From contig CM059434.1 of the NCBI GenBank assembly GCA_030390025.1, positions 60,326,001 through 60,390,000 on the forward strand: a stretch of DNA of 64,000 nt, written 5' to 3'. The notes below the pieces were generated by a model that saw only the letters and a program-made list of their open reading frames with translations, had not been told where the DNA came from and ran no database searches. This stretch comes from Squalus acanthias (taxonomy: Eukaryota). The translations under genes were made by a program, and so were the position numbers. Shown here piece after piece: positions 5,941 through 64,000 of this stretch (the stretch's first letter is position 1; every line of letters starts with the position of its first letter).

Positions 5941-7167
5941 AAAATGCAACCAATGCTTTAGATAAGCAACTGACTACAGAAATGTAAATGAGATGCTCGG
6001 AACTGCTTTTCTACTATGCTCTTCCAAAAATATAGGCACTTGGCCACATTTATTGGCTGATCAGAGATAGTATTAAGTTCAGGGTGGTGCAAACCAAATA
6101 TTTTAGAAGCCAATGAAATGGTTGACTTTCAATGCATTAAAATCATATCAGCAGAAATTCCTTCATGCTGAATGTCTATTTATGTCTGCACACCTCAGAT
6201 TAGTTTTCATCAGATGAATATATTAATGATGCAATCATTAAACTGAAAATTAGAAATTGATTGGTAAGTAACTAAGACCAGCCTGTTAATGAAGAAAGTC
6301 TAATGTGGGCACAGTCCTGCACTAAAATAACAGATTATTACCTTTCTGTGGCTGAAATTTTGTAATTAATTACAATTCTAATATTGGGTATCTGTTGCTT
6401 TGGAAATATGTCTCTCCCCAGCAAGTTCAAAACCATCACCTTTTGGACAAAAGAGCAAATTTAACTCCGTTTGTAGACTATTCCATCTGGTGAAGAGGAT
6501 GGCACTGGATAATTGTTCCCCCCACCCTCCACTGACTTGAGGAGAAGACCCCTGACCGCCACCTCAATCACAGCACCTCGGCTAGAGACAGGAGTTCAAC
6601 AGCATGGCTAATAAGGCCATAAAAAAGCAAACACAGTACTGGAGTTCATTTCTAGAGGAATAGAATTGAAAAGCAACGTTGTTATGTTAAACTTGTATCG
6701 AACCTTGGTTGGACCACACTTGGAGTATTGTGAACAGTTCTGGTCTCCATATTATAAAAAAGATATAGAGGCACTGGAAAAGGTGCAAAAAATATTTACA
6801 AGGTTGATACCAGAACTGAGAGATTACACGTATCAGGAAAGATTGAATAGGCTGGGGCTCTATTCTCTGGAAAAGAGAAGACTGAGGGGTGACCTGATAG
6901 AGGTCTTTAAGATTATGAAAGGGTTTAATAAGAGAGACGTGGAGAAGATGTTTCTACTTGTGGGGAGACAAAAGCTAATAGCCATAAATATAAGATAGTC
7001 ACTAATAAATCCAATAGGGAATTCAGCAGAAACTTCTTTACTCAGCGTGTGGTTAGAATTTGGAACTCGCTACCACAAGGAATAGTTGAGGCGACTAGCA
7101 TAGATGCATTTAAGGCAGGGGTGGGCAATTATTTGGGCTGGAGGGCCACTTACCAAGTTTTGGTGAG

Positions 7168-7326
7168 CTTTTCCCCCTAAGGTGCGCGGCTGTGCGGTTG
7201 CGCACCAATTGCAAGGTCCCGCGCAGGCCGCTCACCAGCTCCTGCTGCTGGAAGAGATACCGTGCATACACGGTCACGCACAAATTTAAAGGGACCACGC
7301 ATGAAAAAAAGTTAGAGGGAACATTG
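7168..7326. mobile_element. Small hAT-like MITE nested near the left end of the Pack-hAT
   Basis: Right end TTAGAGGGAACATTG; partial left end TTCCCCCTAAG. Confidence 0.45.
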
Positions 7327-8130
7327 CCGCACACATAAAATGAATTGTATTAACAACAGCTACCATTAAAATTTGTTATGGCATTTATTGTATAAAGAAC
7401 CCTTCATGTCGTTTCCACACTTAATAAAAATAACAATACTTATTAACATGGTAACGAACATGATACAGGTTCACGAGTCACATTGAAAAGTGCATGGCCT
7501 GTTTATTCCAAATGGTCTAAATTCATTCTTATAGTGGAAAATGAGAGATCGACTCTGCTTCCACTGGCAATTATAAACAAGGTATAAGGCACAATCAAAG
7601 ATAAAATAATTTATACAACCTTTAAAAATTGCACATGAAAGTGCTACTTTGATGCTTTTGAAACCTCGCTAAGAAATAATTAGGTGACTCAGAAAATGAT
7701 TTATACCGCAAATTGCACCCCAGATTAGCCATCCAATTGGCCTGTTCATTGTCAACGTGCTATCATTCCTGAGAAAAGCCAAGGCGCTGATAGAGGTTGT
7801 GGTCTTTCACTGGAGAATGGGCACAAGTAATGCACCATTATAAGACACATTTCTTCCCCGAGTGCTATTTATTACTGGGACTGGCCAATGACATAAATCT
7901 CTATAACCCTCTTCCAATCATGATAATAAACTTAAATTGTTCATGGTATAGGGAAAAAGGGCTTAAATTAAAAACAGTGAGTGCAATGTCCAATATACCC
8001 GGGTCCATTTAGTTATGCTTCCACTATGCTAATTAAGTGGGATAATATTAAAACGAGTGAATAATTGTGCAAGATTTAATAACCCCACTAACAGTCAGTG
8101 GTGAGAGCAAAGTGTTAAATTGGTAAAATG

Positions 8131-8232
8131 AAATAGCAACAGAAAGCGCTGGAAAAGCTCAGCAGGCCAGGCAACATCCGTGGAGAGAGAAACAGAGTTA
8201 ACGTTTCAGGTCGAAGACCCTTCGTCAGAATT
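8131..8232 (-). mobile_element. Penelope-type terminal fragment with a degenerate minimal hammerhead core
   Basis: Minus strand reads CTGACGA-AGGGTCTTCGACCT-GAAA-CGTT, followed by the pLTR-like CTGCTGAGCTTTTCCAGC. Confidence 0.6.
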
Positions 8233-8551
8233 GGTAAAAATTTGAAACAGGCCAACTCGTCATCTTGATCCTCACTCCCACTTCTACCCTCCCAATAATT
8301 TATAAATTTAGATAATAGTCACATACTATCTTAAATACACAGAATGTAGTGTAAAATAGTAAAATCTTTCATTACTAAGTGAATGAAATGATTGATCGAT
8401 CAATTATATGTTGTACTGAAAGTCTACATAGGTGTTTGACAGAGCGGCTCAAGTCTGTGGGGGCTCCGACGCGAGAGTTGTTCTCTTTTAGTGTGCGGAG
8501 TACGGGAGCCCGAGGCTTCGCAAGGCCTGAACTACAATCGCGTGCCATTAC

Positions 8552-8685
8552 CTGGAGTCCTTGTGCTCCGGGATCCACTCCCGTGTCTAAGACGGCGATG
8601 AGAACTCCCCCTGCCATCGTACTCTAGGTATCGGGAGAGGAAGGATGCAGCCTTCAGTAAAAGAGTCATCGAGATGAGCAGCCAT
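8552..8685 (-). pseudogene. TPP2: Tripeptidyl-peptidase II exon 1 fragment, disrupted and transposon-captured
   Basis: ATG at 8685 gives MAAHLDDSF, then a deletion/frameshift, then AASFLSRYLEYDGRG, a +1 frameshift, and [18 protein letters not shown] followed by the donor CAG|GTAATG. This matches the recalled vertebrate TPP2 N-terminus ([33 protein letters not shown]), including the subtilase catalytic Asp motif. Confidence 0.9.
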
Positions 8686-9634
8686 GACTCGACTCTAAAA
8701 TGGTCAGGGTATATTCGAGTACGCAGTGCATTCTGGGTATGGCCATCCGCCATTGGGGCCCAGAATCGCAGAACGGATCCTTTTAAGATCGAGCCGGGGA
8801 GAATCGCTTTTGCGAATTGATAAATTGAATTAAGCATTAATGTGTGTTCCCTGACTGCAGTTCTGGTCCATCTCTAGCCCACGAGAAGTGAAAGTGGATA
8901 GACTAATGTGCAGCTCAAGCTCCGGTTCATGTTCCATTTCTGACCCGTCCAGTGGCCGGATGGAATGACTTGGCGGGCCAGATACGGCCCGCGGGCAATA
9001 TTTTGCCCACCACTGATTTAAGGGGAAGCTAGATAAGTATATGAGGGAGAAAGGAATAGAAGGATATGCTGATAGGGTTCGATGAAGAGGGGTGGGAGGA
9101 GGCTCGTGTGGAGCATAAACACCGGCATAGACCAGTTGGGCCGAAAGGCCTGTTTCTTCGCTGTACATTCTATGTAGTTCTATGCAATCAAGCATGTTGC
9201 CCACCCCCCACATACATACTGTGGCATCGTGTATTGGTGTCTCAAACCGCTTCTAAAAAGCCACTCTCTGTGCGTTTGTTTTTAATGTAGATTTTTTTTG
9301 ACTGTATTAATTTGATTGAATTTCAAGGAACACTAAAGGGGAATAAATAAACTTTTCTTCAGCAACTTTTTTTATATATTGGCTGGGAGTTGGGCAGGGA
9401 GTGAGATCTGAAGACGTGCATCATCTCGGACTGGATTGAAGGGATTGGAAAGTTGAGGAAGAAACGTCGAAGGATGGATTGATGAACTACGGAGGGAGAG
9501 ACACATGGGACTGCGGGCAAGCCAGTGAGGCTTTGCTTTTCAGCTCAGTAAAGGCGGAAAGAGACCTGTTGAGTTGATGCATAGAATTTTTGATAAAGGG
9601 CTGACTGCTCAAGGTAATGATTGAGCTTTCATTG

Positions 9635-9922
9635 AAAGAAAGACTTGCATTTATATAACGCCTTTCACGACCTCAGGACATCCCTAAACGCTGTACAGCC
9701 AATGAAGTACTTTTTGAAGTGTAGTCACTGTTGTAATGTAGGAAATATAGCAGCCAATTTATGAACAGCAAGGCCCCACAAACAGCAATGAGATAATGAC
9801 CAGATAATCTGTTTTAGTGATGTTGGGTGGGGGATAAATATTGGCCAGTACACCAGGGACAACTCTCCTGCTCTTACGTCCATCTGAGAGGGCAGACAGG
9901 GCCTTGGTTTAATATCTCATCC
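9635..9922 (-). mobile_element. Deu-type SINE, 3' half
   Basis: Reverse complement of roughly 5630-5940. Confidence 0.8.
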
Positions 9923-11679: not shown

Positions 11680-11920
11680 GCAGCAAGACCAAAGGACTAC
11701 CATGAGCTCCAGATTTCCTGCCAAGCCACACAGCATCCTCCTTTTTCATTCATTGACATAGGGTCGAAATCTTGGAATTCCCTACCTAAGATCCCCGTGG
11801 AAGCAACATCAGCTCCAGGTCTGCAGCCGTTGAAGGAGAGGGCCCACTACCACCTTCTTGGGGTGACTAGGGATGGGCAATAAATGTGGCTTTGCCAGAG
11901 CCACAGAACAAATAAAAGAA
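11680..11920 (+). mobile_element. Degraded 3' end of LINE family A
   Basis: GGGTCGAAATCTTGGAATTCCCT...CTAGGGATGGGCAATAAATG. Confidence 0.65.
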
Positions 11921-12002
11921 AAAAAGCATCAGGTACAGTCAGAAGTAGTGGTGAGAGACAAATTGGGGGCAGAAGAATGAACTGACGGGGTGGAGGAAGA
12001 GG

Positions 12003-12395
12003 TGGAGAAAAGTGTCTCCATGAACTGGGAGGGGAGATGGAAAGGAGAGTGTATCCATGAACTGGGAGGGGAGATGGAAAGGAGAGTGTATCCATGAACT
12101 GGGAGGGGAGATGGAAAGGAGAGTGTATCCATGAACTGGGAGGGGAGATGGAAAGGAGAGTGTATCCATGAACTGGGAGGGGAGATGGAAAGGAGAGTGT
12201 ATCCATGAACTGGGAGGGGAGATGGAAAGGAGAGTGTATCCATGAACTGGGAGGGGAGATGGAAAGGAGAGTGTATCCATGAACTGGGAGGGGAGATGGA
12301 AAGGAGAGTGTATCCATGAACTGGGGGTGGGGGAGGTTTGAATGGAGAGTGCCTCCATGAACTGGGAGGGTGGGAGTAGGTGGAAGGAGAGTGCC
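12003..12395. repeat. 37-bp minisatellite: 8 perfect units (12018-12313) plus degenerate flanks
   Basis: Unit CCATGAACTGGGAGGGGAGATGGAAAGGAGAGTGTAT; no spacers. Confidence 0.95.
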
Positions 12396-12669
12396 TGTGC
12401 CATATAAATTATTTTAAAACTCTCTGACAATTAGATTTAATAACAGAGGGCACCAATACATATCTGCCATAGCCCACAATTTCTCTACAAGAAATGAGGG
12501 AAAATCTCCATAAGTTTTGCCACAAGCTGCTATTATTAATGGTGGAATGCTGATTTTAAGTTATGACAAGCCTATATCCCACCTCCCTTTCCCTGTAACC
12601 ACATCTCATAGGGCGATAATGATGCCTGGCTTTGAGTTGTCAGCTTTTTTGAGGCTGTGTCAGATGTTT

Positions 12670-49869: not shown

Positions 49870-49999
49870 ACTTCACCTGATGAAGGAGCAGCGCTCCGAA
49901 AGCTTGTGATTTCAAATAAAACTGTTGGACTATAACCTGGTGTTGTGTGACTTCTCACATTTGTCCACCCCAGTCCAACACCGGCATCTCCACATCATG
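49870..49999 (+). mobile_element. 130-bp Penelope pLTR-derived insertion with a minimal hammerhead ribozyme
   Basis: TCAC-CTGATGA-A-GGAGCAGCGCTCC-GAAA-GCTT-GTGA; 7-bp TSD TCCATTG (49863-49869 and 50000-50006). Confidence 0.8.
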
Positions 50000-50011
50000 T
50001 CCATTGTTTTG

Positions 50012-50203
50012 ATGGAGACTGTATCACAGAACTGTATGGAGACTGTATCACAGAACTGTATGGAGACTGTATCACAGAACTGTATGGAGACTGTATCACA
50101 GAACTGTATGGAGACTGTATCACAGAACTGTATGGAGACTGTATCACAGAACTGTATGGAGACTGTATCACAGAACTGTATGGAGACTGTATCACAGAAC
50201 TGT
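50012..50203. repeat. 24-bp minisatellite x8, perfect
   Basis: Unit ATGGAGACTGTATCACAGAACTGT. Confidence 0.95.
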
Positions 50204-50342
50204 AAGCACAACTGCTTGAAAGTAATGATTCGTGGTTTTACTTTTTGGACACCAGACTTTCCTGGTAGCTGGGAACCTGTACAGGTAATTCAATACTCAA
50301 TCCGGTGGTGAGCCAGGAGCCAGGAGCCAGTAGCATTAGATA

Positions 50343-60886: not shown

Positions 60887-60900
60887 TGGTGACCCCGACG
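60887..60900 (+). promoter_or_regulatory. Primer binding site, tRNA-Trp
   Basis: TGGTGACCCCGACG is complementary to the 3' end of vertebrate tRNA-Trp. Confidence 0.85.
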
Positions 60901-60925
60901 CTCAGAACGTATTCCGAGCACTGCA

Positions 60926-63900
60926 ATGGCGGACACGAACGCAGTTTCCGTGAAACTGCCGGAGTTTTGGGAAAACCAGCCCGAAGCCTGGTTTCTCCAA
61001 GCTGAATCTTGCTTCCGGCTGCGAAACATCACCACAGATGGGACGAAGTACGACTATCTCGTCACATCACTCAGTAGCACCACAGTTTCGAAGGTTTGGA
61101 CAGCGCTGCAAAACCCACCAGAGGAAGGCAAGTACGCACATCTCAAGACAGCGCTCCTTAAAAAATTTACGGCCTCGGCATATCAGCGAAACTGCCACCT
61201 CCTCGACCTTCCAGGCCTTGGTGATGCCTCACCGTCAGACCTCCTCTCCCACATGCTGTCCCTCACCGACGAGAGCCCACCCGGATCCCTCTTCCGCATG
61301 CTGTTCATCCGCCAGCTCCCTCTCAGCAGCCGCCCAGCGATCGTGGCGTCCGGCCTCATGAACCTGGAAGCCCTGGCCGATGAGGCCGACAAGCTGCTGT
61401 CTGCTCACTCCAGCCGCGACATCACTCCGGACCTGGCAGCCGATGCCTTGGCGCGCCCCTCACCGGCCACCACGCGGCCACAAGGGCCTGTCACCAGGCC
61501 CACGGGGCCTTCATGCCCCACTAACCCGGGCCACTGTTACTACCACGCACGGTTTGGCGCCAGGGCACAATGGTGAACACCTCCCTGCTCTTTCAAGTCC
61601 GCCCCCGTACCAGCCCCCGCGATGGCCGTGGGCCACGCGGGCTCCCTGCTGTTCGTCACGGATGACAAAACCGGCCGTCGGTTCCTGTGCGACACTGGGG
61701 CTCAGCACAGCATCATCCCGGCCTCCTCCCTCGACATCCAAAAGGGCGAACGAGGACCGGCGCTGGCTGCTAATAACGGCTCGGAAATCCGGACGTATGG
61801 CACCCGGACTGTCACCCTCGACCTCGCTGGTCGCCGCTACCGATGGGAGTTCATCACTGCCAAGGTGCTCTCCCCTCTCATCGGCGCAGATTTCCTGTGC
61901 GCCCACGGCCTACTGGTAGGTTTCCCCCGTCACCGCCTCGTGGACATGAACACCATGTCCCCCATCCTGGGCGCCATGGCCCCCCGTCAACCCGCCGACA
62001 TGGCGTCACAATGCCACGCCCGGGCCACGGATGACTACTCGGCACTCCTGGCCGAATTCCTGGCCCTTACCAATCCGACCTTCTCCGCGGAGGCCGCCAA
62101 ACACAGGGTGGAACACTTCATCCCCACCACAGGCCCCCCAGTGTACATCCATGCCCGCAGGCTGGACCCGTCCAAACTGGAGATCGCGCGGACCGAGTTT
62201 GCCACCATGGAACAGCTCGGCATCATCCGCCGCTCCAACAGTCCCTGGGCCTCCCCACTCCACATCGCCCCCAAACCAGGCGGAGGTTGGCGCCCCTGCG
62301 GGGATTACCGCCGCCTCAACGACGCCACCACCCCTGATTGGTACCCCGTACCGCACATTCAGGACTTCTCGGCTAGACTGGCCGGCCGCACAGTCTTTTC
62401 CAAGGTCGACTTGGTGCGCGGCTACCACCAAGTCCCCATCCACCCCGCGGACGTCCCCAAGACGGCTGTAATCACCCCCTTCGGCCTGTTCAAGTTCCTG
62501 CGGATGCCCTTCGGCCTCAAAAACGCGGCCCAGGCATTCCAACGGCTCATGGACTCGGTCCTTCGGGACCTGTAGTTTCTGTTCGTCTACCTGGACGACA
62601 TCCTGGTAGCCAGTTCCTCCAAGCAGGAACACCTCGAACACCTTCGCATCCTGTTCGGGCGCCTCAGCGACCACGGGCTCATCCTCAGCCCAGCCAAATG
62701 CCAGTTCGGCCTGGACAAGATCGACTTCCTCGGCCACCACATCACCCATGCTGGGGCCATTCCCCTGCCCACCAAGGTGCAGGCCGTCCAACAATTTCCC
62801 CGCCCCACCACCCTCATGAGGCCCCTGTATGAAGCCCTCCGAGGCAGGAGCGGCAAGATGGCAGTCGAATGGACGGCAGACGCATCCGCCGCCTTCGACT
62901 CCACCAAGACCGTGCTTGCCAACGCCACCCTGCTCGCGCACCCACGGCCCAATGCCAGGGTAGCGCTCACCACGGACGCCTCCGACCACGCGGTCGGCGC
63001 CGTGTATGAGCAGTGGGTCGACGGCACCTGGCAACCACTTGCCTTCTTCAGCCGCCAACTACGCCCCCCGGAGGTCAAGTACAGCACCTTCGACCGCGAG
63101 CTCCTCGCGTTGTTCCTGGCGGTCCGCCATTTCCGGTTTTTGCTTGAGGGCCACCCCTTCACTGCGTTTGTCGACCACAAGCCCCTGACATTCGCAATGG
63201 CAAAGACAACCGACCCCTGGTCTGCCAGGCAGCAGCGCCAGCTCGCGGCAGTGTCCGAGTTCACCACGGACATCCAACACGTCTCCAGCCGAGACAATGT
63301 GGTAGCCGAATGCCTCTCCCGCCCCGCCATCCACGCCGCACACCTGGCAGTCGACTACGCTCAACTCGCAGCAGACCAGATCACCGACCCTGATCTGCTC
63401 TCCGCACCCACCAACCTACCAGAGCTACGCCTGGCCGACGTCGCCTGTGGCCCGACTGCAGTCATGGTCAAGTGCGACATATCCCTATGTCAACCTCGGC
63501 CCGTCGTCCCAGCGTCCTGGCGCCGCCGGGTATTCGACATTCTCCACAACCTCTCCCACCCCGGCGCCGGCGCATCCATCAAATTGGTAGCCAACCGCTT
63601 CGTCTGGCGCGACCTTCGCAAGGATGTGCGTACTTGGGCCAACTCCTGCCTAGCCTGCCAACGGGCCAAGGTACAGCAACACACGAAAGCACCCCTCGAG
63701 GAGTTTACCGTCCCCTCGCGGAGATTCGACCACATCCACGTGGACATCATCAGGCCCCTGCCGCCGTCGCAAGGCCACACGCACTTGCTGACCATCGTTG
63801 ACCGCACCACACGCTGGCCCGAGGCAATTCCACTGACCTCTACCACCACCGCCGACATCGCCAGAGCCTTCGTCAGCACCTGGGTCGCACGGTTCGGCGT

Positions 63901-64000
63901 CCCCTCCGACATGATGTCGGACAGAGGTCCGCAATTTACCTCTGAACTCTGGACTGCCGTCGCACGCAATCTCGGGGTGACCATTCACCGCACCACAGCG
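60926..64000 (+). pseudogene. Ty3/Gypsy gag-pol (Gag-PR-RT-RNaseH-IN), single frame with two premature stops; runs off the window
   Basis: Gag VKLPEFW and CYYHARFG; protease FLCDTGA; RT WASPL...VYLDD; RNase H TDAS...ELLA...DHKPL; integrase HHCC, HVDI and SDRG. Stops at 61574 and 62573. Confidence 0.95.

What the first reader, a model, noticed from the sequence alone, without database searches (positions are those of the whole stretch)
7116..9015. Pack-hAT: a non-autonomous DNA transposon carrying genomic TPP2 exon 1, its upstream region and its splice donor
Seen in the sequence: 13-bp TIRs (12/13 match) and a perfect 8-bp TSD (ATTTAAGG), inserted cleanly into a CR1. Inside, on the minus strand, is a TPP2 start-exon homolog that ends exactly at CAG|GTAATG and is flanked by CpG-rich DNA (about 8430-8830). 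Established: 8-bp TSDs typify hAT elements, and gene capture by TIR elements (Pack-MULE, Pack-TIR) is well known in plants but much less reported in vertebrates. Inference: TPP2 similarity stops at the donor, so the cargo is genomic DNA rather than a retrocopy. The rest of the cargo (about 7330-8550) may be TPP2 intron 1. The element would then move a housekeeping promoter/5'UTR, an ATG and a donor, i.e. a portable first exon, possibly inside a same-strand host gene.
Basis: partly seen in the sequence, partly recalled or inferred. Interest (0 to 1): 0.85.

Follow-up and report, generated by a model that had tools for sequence, protein, structure and literature searches.

The report
Shark transposon spreading captured first exons
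A small cut-and-paste DNA transposon in this shark-like genome carries the first exon and part of the first intron of the housekeeping gene TPP2 and sits at an estimated several hundred places, and a sister element carries the start of a second gene, TSPAN17; the copies are likely dead relics, but gene capture on this scale is seldom reported for such transposons in vertebrates.

Summary
Confirmed and extended. 7116-9015 is a non-autonomous hAT (Buster/Charlie-type) element: 13-bp TIRs, 8-bp TSD, inserted in a CR1. The true TPP2 gene is on another chromosome (G000:C7). The element holds 769 bp of it at 91% identity: 66 nt of leader, coding exon 1, the donor and about 540 nt of intron 1.

It is a family: 51 of 94 elements with an exact left end carry the exon, about 375-475 copies are estimated, and 25 different TSDs were seen. 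Transposase-bearing relatives share its ends.

- The 'promoter' at 8700-8830 is a later 204-bp insert, not TPP2.
- Similarity does not stop at the donor.
- 7330-7887 is not TPP2 intron.
- No upstream promoter was captured.
- All 84 copies spanning the site carry a deletion in the exon (founder: 17 bp, a frameshift); this copy has a stop.

No selection on the exon and no use of the donor was seen. New: a sister family with the same ends carries the 5' leader, exon 1, donor and intron of TSPAN17 in the same position and orientation. This is a high-copy Pack-TIR, mechanistically interesting and functionally unproven.

The parts
7108..7115 (.). Left copy of the 8-bp target site duplication (ATTTAAGG) in a CR1-like LINE
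7116..7172 (-). 3' terminus of the hAT (TIR 7116-7128); 96% identical to the same end of transposase-bearing element L253
7173..7326 (.). Nested ~150-bp MITE with its own TIRs and an 8-bp TSD (CCGCACAC) in intact copies; left edge partly deleted here; absent from the simplest copies
7327..7474 (-). 3' subterminal DNA of the parent hAT, downstream of the transposase gene in L253/L209 (89% identical)
7475..7887 (.). 413-bp segment of unknown source, already present in the simplest full copies; not in TPP2 intron 1 and not in the parent element
7888..8551 (-). Captured TPP2 intron 1 (gene C7:79,129,347-79,128,807, 541 nt), with a family-wide 5-bp insertion just after the donor
8128..8240 (-). 113-bp SINE-like repeat inserted in this copy, with an ~11-bp flanking duplication
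8552..8685 (-). Captured TPP2 coding exon 1 (ATG at 8685, last base 8552, donor GT at 8551-8550). 134 nt against 162 in the gene: founder 17-bp deletion plus a private 12-bp deletion and 1-bp insertion; stop codon before the donor
8686..8695 (-). Last 10 nt of the TPP2 5' leader
8696..8899 (.). 204-bp CpG-rich insert acquired after the capture; splits the TPP2 leader; present in 21 of 52 exon-bearing copies; source not found
8900..8955 (-). First 56 nt of the captured TPP2 upstream/leader DNA (gene C7:79,129,575-79,129,520); 4-nt microhomology (CCGC) with the transposon end at the junction
8956..9015 (-). 5' terminus of the hAT (TIR 9003-9015), shared with sister families and the transposase-bearing copy
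9016..9023 (.). Right copy of the TSD

Best explanation
This is one copy of a family of non-autonomous hAT DNA transposons that carries the 5' end of the host TPP2 gene, likely copied in by a template switch during repair of a broken element and then likely spread to several hundred sites by the transposase of a related full-length element. SHOWN: the anatomy; the source locus; the same sense as the parent's transposase gene; many insertion sites with distinct 8-bp TSDs; a founder frameshift in the exon; later gains (nested MITE, 204-bp insert) and internal deletions that each recur at several sites; a star-shaped tree; a second capture of the same design (TSPAN17) by a sister family. INFERRED: one capture event through 4-nt microhomology about 60 bp inside the 5' end; mobilisation in trans by the Buster/Charlie-type transposase; a single old burst followed by neutral decay; and a bias for gene starts because Buster-type transposases favour open chromatin near start sites. 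The window copy is a dead relic.
For: Cargo aligns to one locus without transposon ends. 60 of 94 elements with an exact 32-nt left end hold TPP2 DNA and 51 of 94 hold at least 60 nt of the coding exon. Recapture (8 of 59; 12 of 95) gives about 375-475 copies, in line with 516 first-look candidates. TSDs: 25 of 71 perfect and 45 of 71 within one mismatch, against 1.3% for mismatched pairs; perfect only at length 8; T at position 4 in 79 of 94 and A at position 5 in 81 of 94. L253 (3,215 bp, perfect TSD) and L209 share the ends and hold decayed GTF2IRD2-like transposase (best hit 69%, E 8e-43). Tree of 71 copies plus the gene: median tip 0.063, median internal branch 0.004. The gene differs from the family majority at 32 of 699 sites and copies at about 5-9%. 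dN/dS is the same (0.76) in 14 frame-restored and 37 frameshifted copies.
Against: No intact transposase copy was seen, so trans-mobilisation is inferred from shared ends. Only the 5' junction can be read; the 3' junction abuts a 413-bp segment of unknown source. Subfamily order is read from structure, because the tree does not resolve it. 19 of 91 copies keep ATG, an open reading frame, a length divisible by three and GT, so not every copy is visibly dead. At least 14 loci (C26 and unplaced contigs) share one flank and multiplied as passengers, not by transposition, which inflates the count somewhat. The copy estimate assumes that best-scoring hits are typical.
Confidence: 0.85

Rival explanations
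1. The template was the nascent unspliced transcript (or the displaced strand of an R-loop), not ordinary duplex DNA, so captures begin at the transcription start, run sense and end inside intron 1.
For: The TPP2 capture begins 13 nt upstream of the furthest contig identical to the message, and no contig covers the next ~180 nt in 4 of 4 runs. The TSPAN17 capture begins 239 nt before the ATG and leaves out the GC-box-rich DNA further upstream. Both captures are sense to the transposase.
Against: Only two verified cases. Contigs cannot show a start, the runs are only guessed to be RNA, and a repeat at L090:9590-9619 was skipped. A DNA template switch near an accessible start site predicts a similar picture. 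The unverified S1 cargo includes a GC box and a CRE-like motif.
Confidence: 0.15
2. The family acts as a portable promoter and first exon: copies start transcripts and splice from the TPP2 donor into host exons.
For: 72 of 91 copies keep GT and 37 of 91 keep ATG, an open frame and GT. A further 4-bp deletion restores the TPP2 frame in a subfamily (17 of 84). CpG o/e stays near 0.96. Family-type contigs occur in presumed RNA runs.
Against: No upstream promoter was captured. Exon and intron diverge equally outside CpG (0.051 against 0.050-0.056). There is no frame-specific constraint. Displayed family-type contigs cross the donor unspliced or end there, and the only spliced loose end shown is TPP2 exon 2 (36 loose ends and 59 pieces were not shown). 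The window copy has a stop.
Confidence: 0.15
3. This is the real TPP2 locus, a processed retrocopy, or a plain segmental duplication of TPP2.
For: Some copies did multiply by segmental or tandem duplication.
Against: The gene with exon 1 and exon 2 and the remaining exons lies on C7. The cargo contains intron and no exon 2. TPP2 similarity stops inside the element, and the TSDs differ among copies.
Confidence: 0.01

Closest known systems
Pack-TIRs of animals, above all Pack-hAT-N8_XT of Xenopus tropicalis (Tan et al. 2021, PMC8277862; seen: abstract, passages, sections 7 and 14, word search of 12 supplementary files)
   Same: A TIR element (hAT) holding a host fragment with an identifiable parent, microhomology at the junction, distinct TSDs, on other chromosomes than the parent; the frog case also took 5' UTR DNA (CAPSL).
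   Different: They found 4 multicopy cases among 370 Pack-TIRs, the example with three copies, and 0 in elephant shark, the only row with the word 'shark' in their supplements. Here there are hundreds of copies, a coding first exon with donor, serial remodelling and a second capture by the same lineage. Their pipeline required a unique top hit, so it would likely miss such families (inference from section 14).
HelibatN3 and other bat Helitrons carrying promoters and first exons (Thomas et al. 2014, PMC4224331; passages seen)
   Same: A vertebrate DNA transposon amplifying a gene's 5' UTR, first exon and part of intron 1 to high copy number (NUBPL, a thousand copies), with a bias for gene 5' ends and serial acquisitions.
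   Different: Helitrons are rolling-circle elements; this one is cut-and-paste with TIRs and an 8-bp TSD. HelibatN3 carries the promoter; here essentially only the leader was taken.
Buster family of hAT transposons (TcBuster, Mar; PMC3499496 and PMC3517528, passages seen)
   Same: 8-bp TSD with consensus nnnTAnnn; transposase similar to TFII-I/GTF2IRD2-like proteins; TcBuster favours start sites.
   Different: This element is non-autonomous and filled with host DNA; only decayed transposase copies were found.
Pack-MULEs of plants (recalled; also as cited in PMC8277862)
   Same: Non-autonomous TIR elements carrying GC-rich gene fragments, often multicopy.
   Different: Different superfamily and kingdom.

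Membership tests
hAT superfamily, non-autonomous | 8-bp target site duplication | tested here: met
   Perfect duplications only at length 8 (25 of 71; 0 at lengths 4-7 and 9-11)
hAT superfamily, non-autonomous | Short terminal inverted repeats | tested here: met
   12 of 13 bases match
hAT superfamily, non-autonomous | Ends shared with a hAT transposase-coding element | tested here: met
   L253 and L209: shared 57-bp and 148-bp 3' ends and a similar 5' end; homologs carry PF14291 and often PF05699. The direct Pfam hit on L209 was below the cut-off (E 1e-4)
hAT superfamily, non-autonomous | An intact, active partner transposase | tested here: inconclusive
   Only broken copies among the 94 left-end loci; no genome-wide transposase search was run
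Buster/Charlie branch of hAT | TSD consensus nnnTAnnn | tested here: met
   T at position 4 in 79 of 94, A at position 5 in 81 of 94; definition
Buster/Charlie branch of hAT | Transposase falls in the Buster clade | tested here: inconclusive
   Most named hits are GTF2IRD2-like; no tree with Ac-family outgroups was built
Pack-TIR | Internal DNA with an unambiguous non-TE parent not flanked by the TE | tested here: met
   C7 TPP2 exon 1 region, 91%; no element ends beside it
Pack-TIR | Not a retrocopy and not a segmental duplication | tested here: met
   Intron retained, no exon 2, boundaries inside the element
Pack-TIR (multicopy) | Several sites with distinct TSDs | tested here: met
   25 different TSDs among the 26 exon-bearing copies within one mismatch
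Functional portable promoter / first exon | Captured promoter upstream of the start site | tested here: not met
   66 nt upstream of the ATG, at least 53 inside message-identical contigs; exact start site not known
Functional portable promoter / first exon | Initiation and splicing from element copies | tested here: inconclusive
   No holder on record as RNA; contigs only, output cut

The most novel reading that the evidence does not exclude
One Buster-type hAT lineage in sharks worked as a serial first-exon harvester: it repeatedly copied gene starts from the transcription start through the first splice donor (TPP2, TSPAN17, probably more sister families) into the same slot behind its 5' end, possibly from nascent RNA or R-loops, and scattered hundreds of ATG-plus-donor modules, some restored to frame, of which a few now serve as alternative first exons.
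Probability: 0.25. Interest if true: 0.82.

Novelty: new variant of a known kind. Interest (0 to 1): 0.6.

Why it matters
The one survey of animal Pack-TIRs that I read concluded that capture followed by transposition is rare and low-copy. This family exceeds that survey's example roughly a hundredfold, which suggests that high-copy Pack-TIRs are missed because the cargo is hidden inside the repeat family. Two captures of matching design by one lineage make the long-open question of how cut-and-paste elements pick up host DNA testable: DNA or RNA template, start-site bias, fixed breakpoint. In practice, hundreds of TPP2 exon-1 look-alikes can mislead gene annotation and read mapping in sharks. 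No function is shown.

Tried and rejected
Source of the 204-bp insert and the 413-bp segment: not found by DNA searches (40 of 218 and 40 of 312 candidates scored), by junction-excluding patterns (14 and 5 matches, family copies or chance), or in the TPP2, paralog and TSPAN17 regions. These tests have low power.

Source of the S1 cargo: not found (40 of 247 candidates scored, all looked at).

Pfam on 123 ORFs from sister-family interiors: one hit, a NAV1-like exon that lies outside its element.

Host gene: 150 of 341 unmasked ORFs tested, all from the first 33.6 kb, 0 hits.

PDB search with the cargo peptides: too short to be significant.

Expression: no RNA holder listed, which is no evidence either way. 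Summed depths are not copy numbers.

The C6 TPP2-like gene as source: rejected, no DNA match.

Literature searches with 0 hits: 'TPP2 + shark + transposon', 'TPP2 + paralog + cartilaginous', 'Pack-TIR + shark'. Searches listed nothing on this family. The library lacks most subscription papers, and Repbase and Dfam were not available, so the family may already be catalogued there without a note on its cargo. Supplements of the other four papers were not read.

Full report
OBSERVATION. The element spans 7116-9015 with 13-bp TIRs (12 of 13 match) and the TSD ATTTAAGG. It interrupts a CR1-like LINE cleanly: 10 of 11 other CR1 copies that reach the end of the left flank continue into the right flank with an 8-bp overlap, and public contigs show the same empty site. 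The genome is 3.7 Gb. Its TPP2 is 87-93% identical to named shark, ray and chimaera proteins, so I call it a shark (inference).

SOURCE OF THE CARGO. Pfam TPPII finds two loci. The C7 gene is the ortholog: exon 1 at 79,129,509-79,129,348, exon 2 at 79,120,955-824, and later exons at 77.34-77.24 Mb beyond assembly gaps. The C6 gene gives no DNA match to the cargo. The element aligns to C7:79,129,575-79,128,807 at 658 of 723 columns (score 934; at most 28 in 20 shuffles). That is 66 nt upstream of the ATG, the 162-nt coding exon and 541 nt of intron 1, at window 8955-7888. Two inserts interrupt it: a 113-bp SINE-like repeat and a 204-bp stretch at 8696-8899 that splits the leader. Window 7475-7887 is not in intron 1. 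No element ends lie beside the gene, and the exon's peptide is conserved to mammals, so the direction is gene to transposon.

PROMOTER OR LEADER. In four runs guessed to be RNA, contigs with no difference from the gene splice from the donor to exon 2 (3 of 4 runs shown) and reach 53 and 49 nt upstream of the ATG (L090:9562 and 9558); cover is zero from 9578 to 9759 in 4 of 4. The capture boundary is at 9575. So the element took the leader and at most the start site itself, not an upstream promoter. Caveats: contigs cannot show a start, and a repeat at 9590-9619 was skipped.

A FAMILY. The whole element gave 4,243 first-look candidates (inflated by nested repeats) and the exon region 516, with 40 scored each. 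An exact 32-nt left-end pattern, blind to the interior, matched 94 places (control 0). Of these, 60 hold TPP2 DNA and 51 hold at least 60 nt of the coding exon. Among exon-region hits found independently, 8 of 59 have that exact end (12 of 95 with all lists), which gives about 375-475 copies. This is an estimate. Right ends were found for 71 of 94: 25 TSDs are perfect and 45 are within one mismatch (1.3% for mismatched pairs), only at length 8, with a central TA, the Buster consensus. Among exon-bearing copies 43 of 52 had a right end and 26 were within one mismatch, with 25 different TSDs. At least 14 loci on C26 and unplaced contigs share one flank; ten of them form a clade. They were duplicated as passengers.

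HISTORY. The simplest full copies (~1,415 bp) lack the MITE and the 204-bp insert and match the gene across that site. Others add the MITE, the insert, or shared internal deletions, each at several sites. None of 84 copies spanning the site has the gene's length: 49 have a net 17-bp loss and 17 have 21 bp, so the frameshift was in the founder and one subfamily regained frame. The gene differs from the family majority at 32 of 699 sites and copies by about 5-9%; the tree of 71 copies is star-like. This fits one old burst soon after capture. Three coded organisms hold the family in runs of unrecorded kind, and for two of them a unique flank differs from the window at 18-19 of 464 bases, so the burst likely predates their split. 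I give no date in years.

PARTNER. L253 (C3:100,055,471; 3,215 bp; perfect TSD) and L209 share the ends and contain decayed transposase, with named hits mostly GTF2IRD2-like (best 69%, E 8e-43), many with the hAT dimerisation domain. The transposase reads in the same sense as the TPP2 cargo. The cargo joins the 5' end about 60 bp in, through a shared CCGC. No intact transposase was seen.

FUNCTION. Of 91 copies spanning ATG to donor, 58 keep ATG, 72 keep GT, 37 are open with GT and 19 are also a multiple of three in length; the window copy has a stop. Non-CpG divergence is equal in exon and intron, and dN/dS is 0.76 in both frame-restored (14) and frameshifted (37) copies, after 13 listed duplicate ids were excluded. 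The value below 1 is shared by all classes and likely reflects CpG decay at third positions. Family-type contigs shown cross the donor unspliced or end at it (output was cut). No host gene was found in the part tested.

A SECOND CAPTURE. 34 of the first 90 left-end loci lacked TPP2 DNA. One sister family (L259, L260, L343-L348) gave 8 places: 7 element copies and one locus without element ends in a CpG island. That locus is exon 1 of TSPAN17 (96% to shark TSPAN17), with seven more exons downstream at C3:139,009,744-139,046,210. The copies hold from 239 nt before the ATG through the exon and GTAAGT donor to about 0.7-0.8 kb of intron, at 74-79% identity, sense, behind the same ~60-bp 5' end. 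Four of five complete copies have near-matching TSDs, and 1 of 7 keeps the TSPAN17 frame throughout. A third family (~770 bp; 247 candidates) carries a GC-rich stretch with a GC box and a GTGAGT donor-like site in the same sense, but its source was not found.

MECHANISM. Most likely a template switch during repair of a broken element copied an accessible gene start into it, and the transposase then amplified it (0.85). TcBuster's preference for start sites (PMC3499496, passages) offers a reason for the bias. A nascent-RNA or R-loop template (0.15) would explain both boundaries but rests on two cases. Use of some copies as first exons (0.15) is not excluded.

WHAT IS KNOWN. It meets the tests for hAT and for a multicopy Pack-TIR. 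Tan et al. 2021 (PMC8277862) report 4 multicopy cases among 370 and none in elephant shark, with no mention of TPP2 or TSPAN17 in the supplements and none of TPP2 in the main text. It works like bat HelibatN3 (PMC4224331) but is not a Helitron. PMC5753468 (passages) added nothing. An unchecked note from this scan describes a high-copy Tigger-type BAZ1A capture in the same genome, so such families may be common in sharks.

VERDICT. A real new variant of a known kind, notable for copy number and repeated first-exon capture, with no function shown. Interest 0.6.

Noticed in passing
G000:C6:130,982,878-131,089,971 (+); L055-L065: A second, multi-exon TPP2-like gene with the three catalytic motifs present, 68-71% identical to every jawed-vertebrate TPP2 tested, sharks included. 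Likely an ancient paralog; no paper found.
   Followed up: partly
G000:C7:77.24-77.34 Mb and 79.11-79.13 Mb: TPP2 exons 1-2 lie 1.78 Mb from exon 3, with assembly gaps at 79,110,527 and 77,341,620; probably a scaffolding misorder.
   Followed up: partly
L259, L260, L343-L348; source L350 / C3:139,067,508-139,066,355: Sister hAT family carrying the TSPAN17 leader, exon 1, donor and intron 1.
   Followed up: yes
L183, L195, L200, L207, L243, L211 and others: Sister family (~770 bp) with an AT-rich repeat and a CpG-rich cargo holding a GC box, a CRE-like motif and a GTGAGT site; source unknown.
   Followed up: partly
L240, L251, L266, L247, L190, L184; L258; L192: Further sister families with the same ends and other unidentified interiors; no Pfam hits in the ORFs tested.
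   Followed up: partly
window 7173-7326; L211, L183: Related but different MITE variants sit at the same CCGCACAC site in the TPP2 family and in the S1/L211 family, suggesting a hotspot or exchange between sister elements.
   Followed up: no
C26:39.7-42.8 Mb and contigs C1989, C3370, C3463, C3228, C825, C1021, C1703, C526, C3432, C3876: One insertion was multiplied at least 14 times together with its flanking repeat; host array unknown.
   Followed up: partly
L259:7161-7412 (-), G000:C11:96.03 Mb: An exon with a NAV1-like AAA lid domain lies about 100 bp outside a TSPAN17-carrying copy, so that copy likely sits in an intron of a host gene, antisense to it.
   Followed up: no
window 60,893-64,000: GC-rich stretch with long gag/pol-like ORFs of an LTR retrotransposon, judged by eye from the ORF listing.
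   Followed up: no
window 11,850-12,430 and 49,910-50,310: Two tandem minisatellite-like arrays seen as repetitive ORFs.
   Followed up: no
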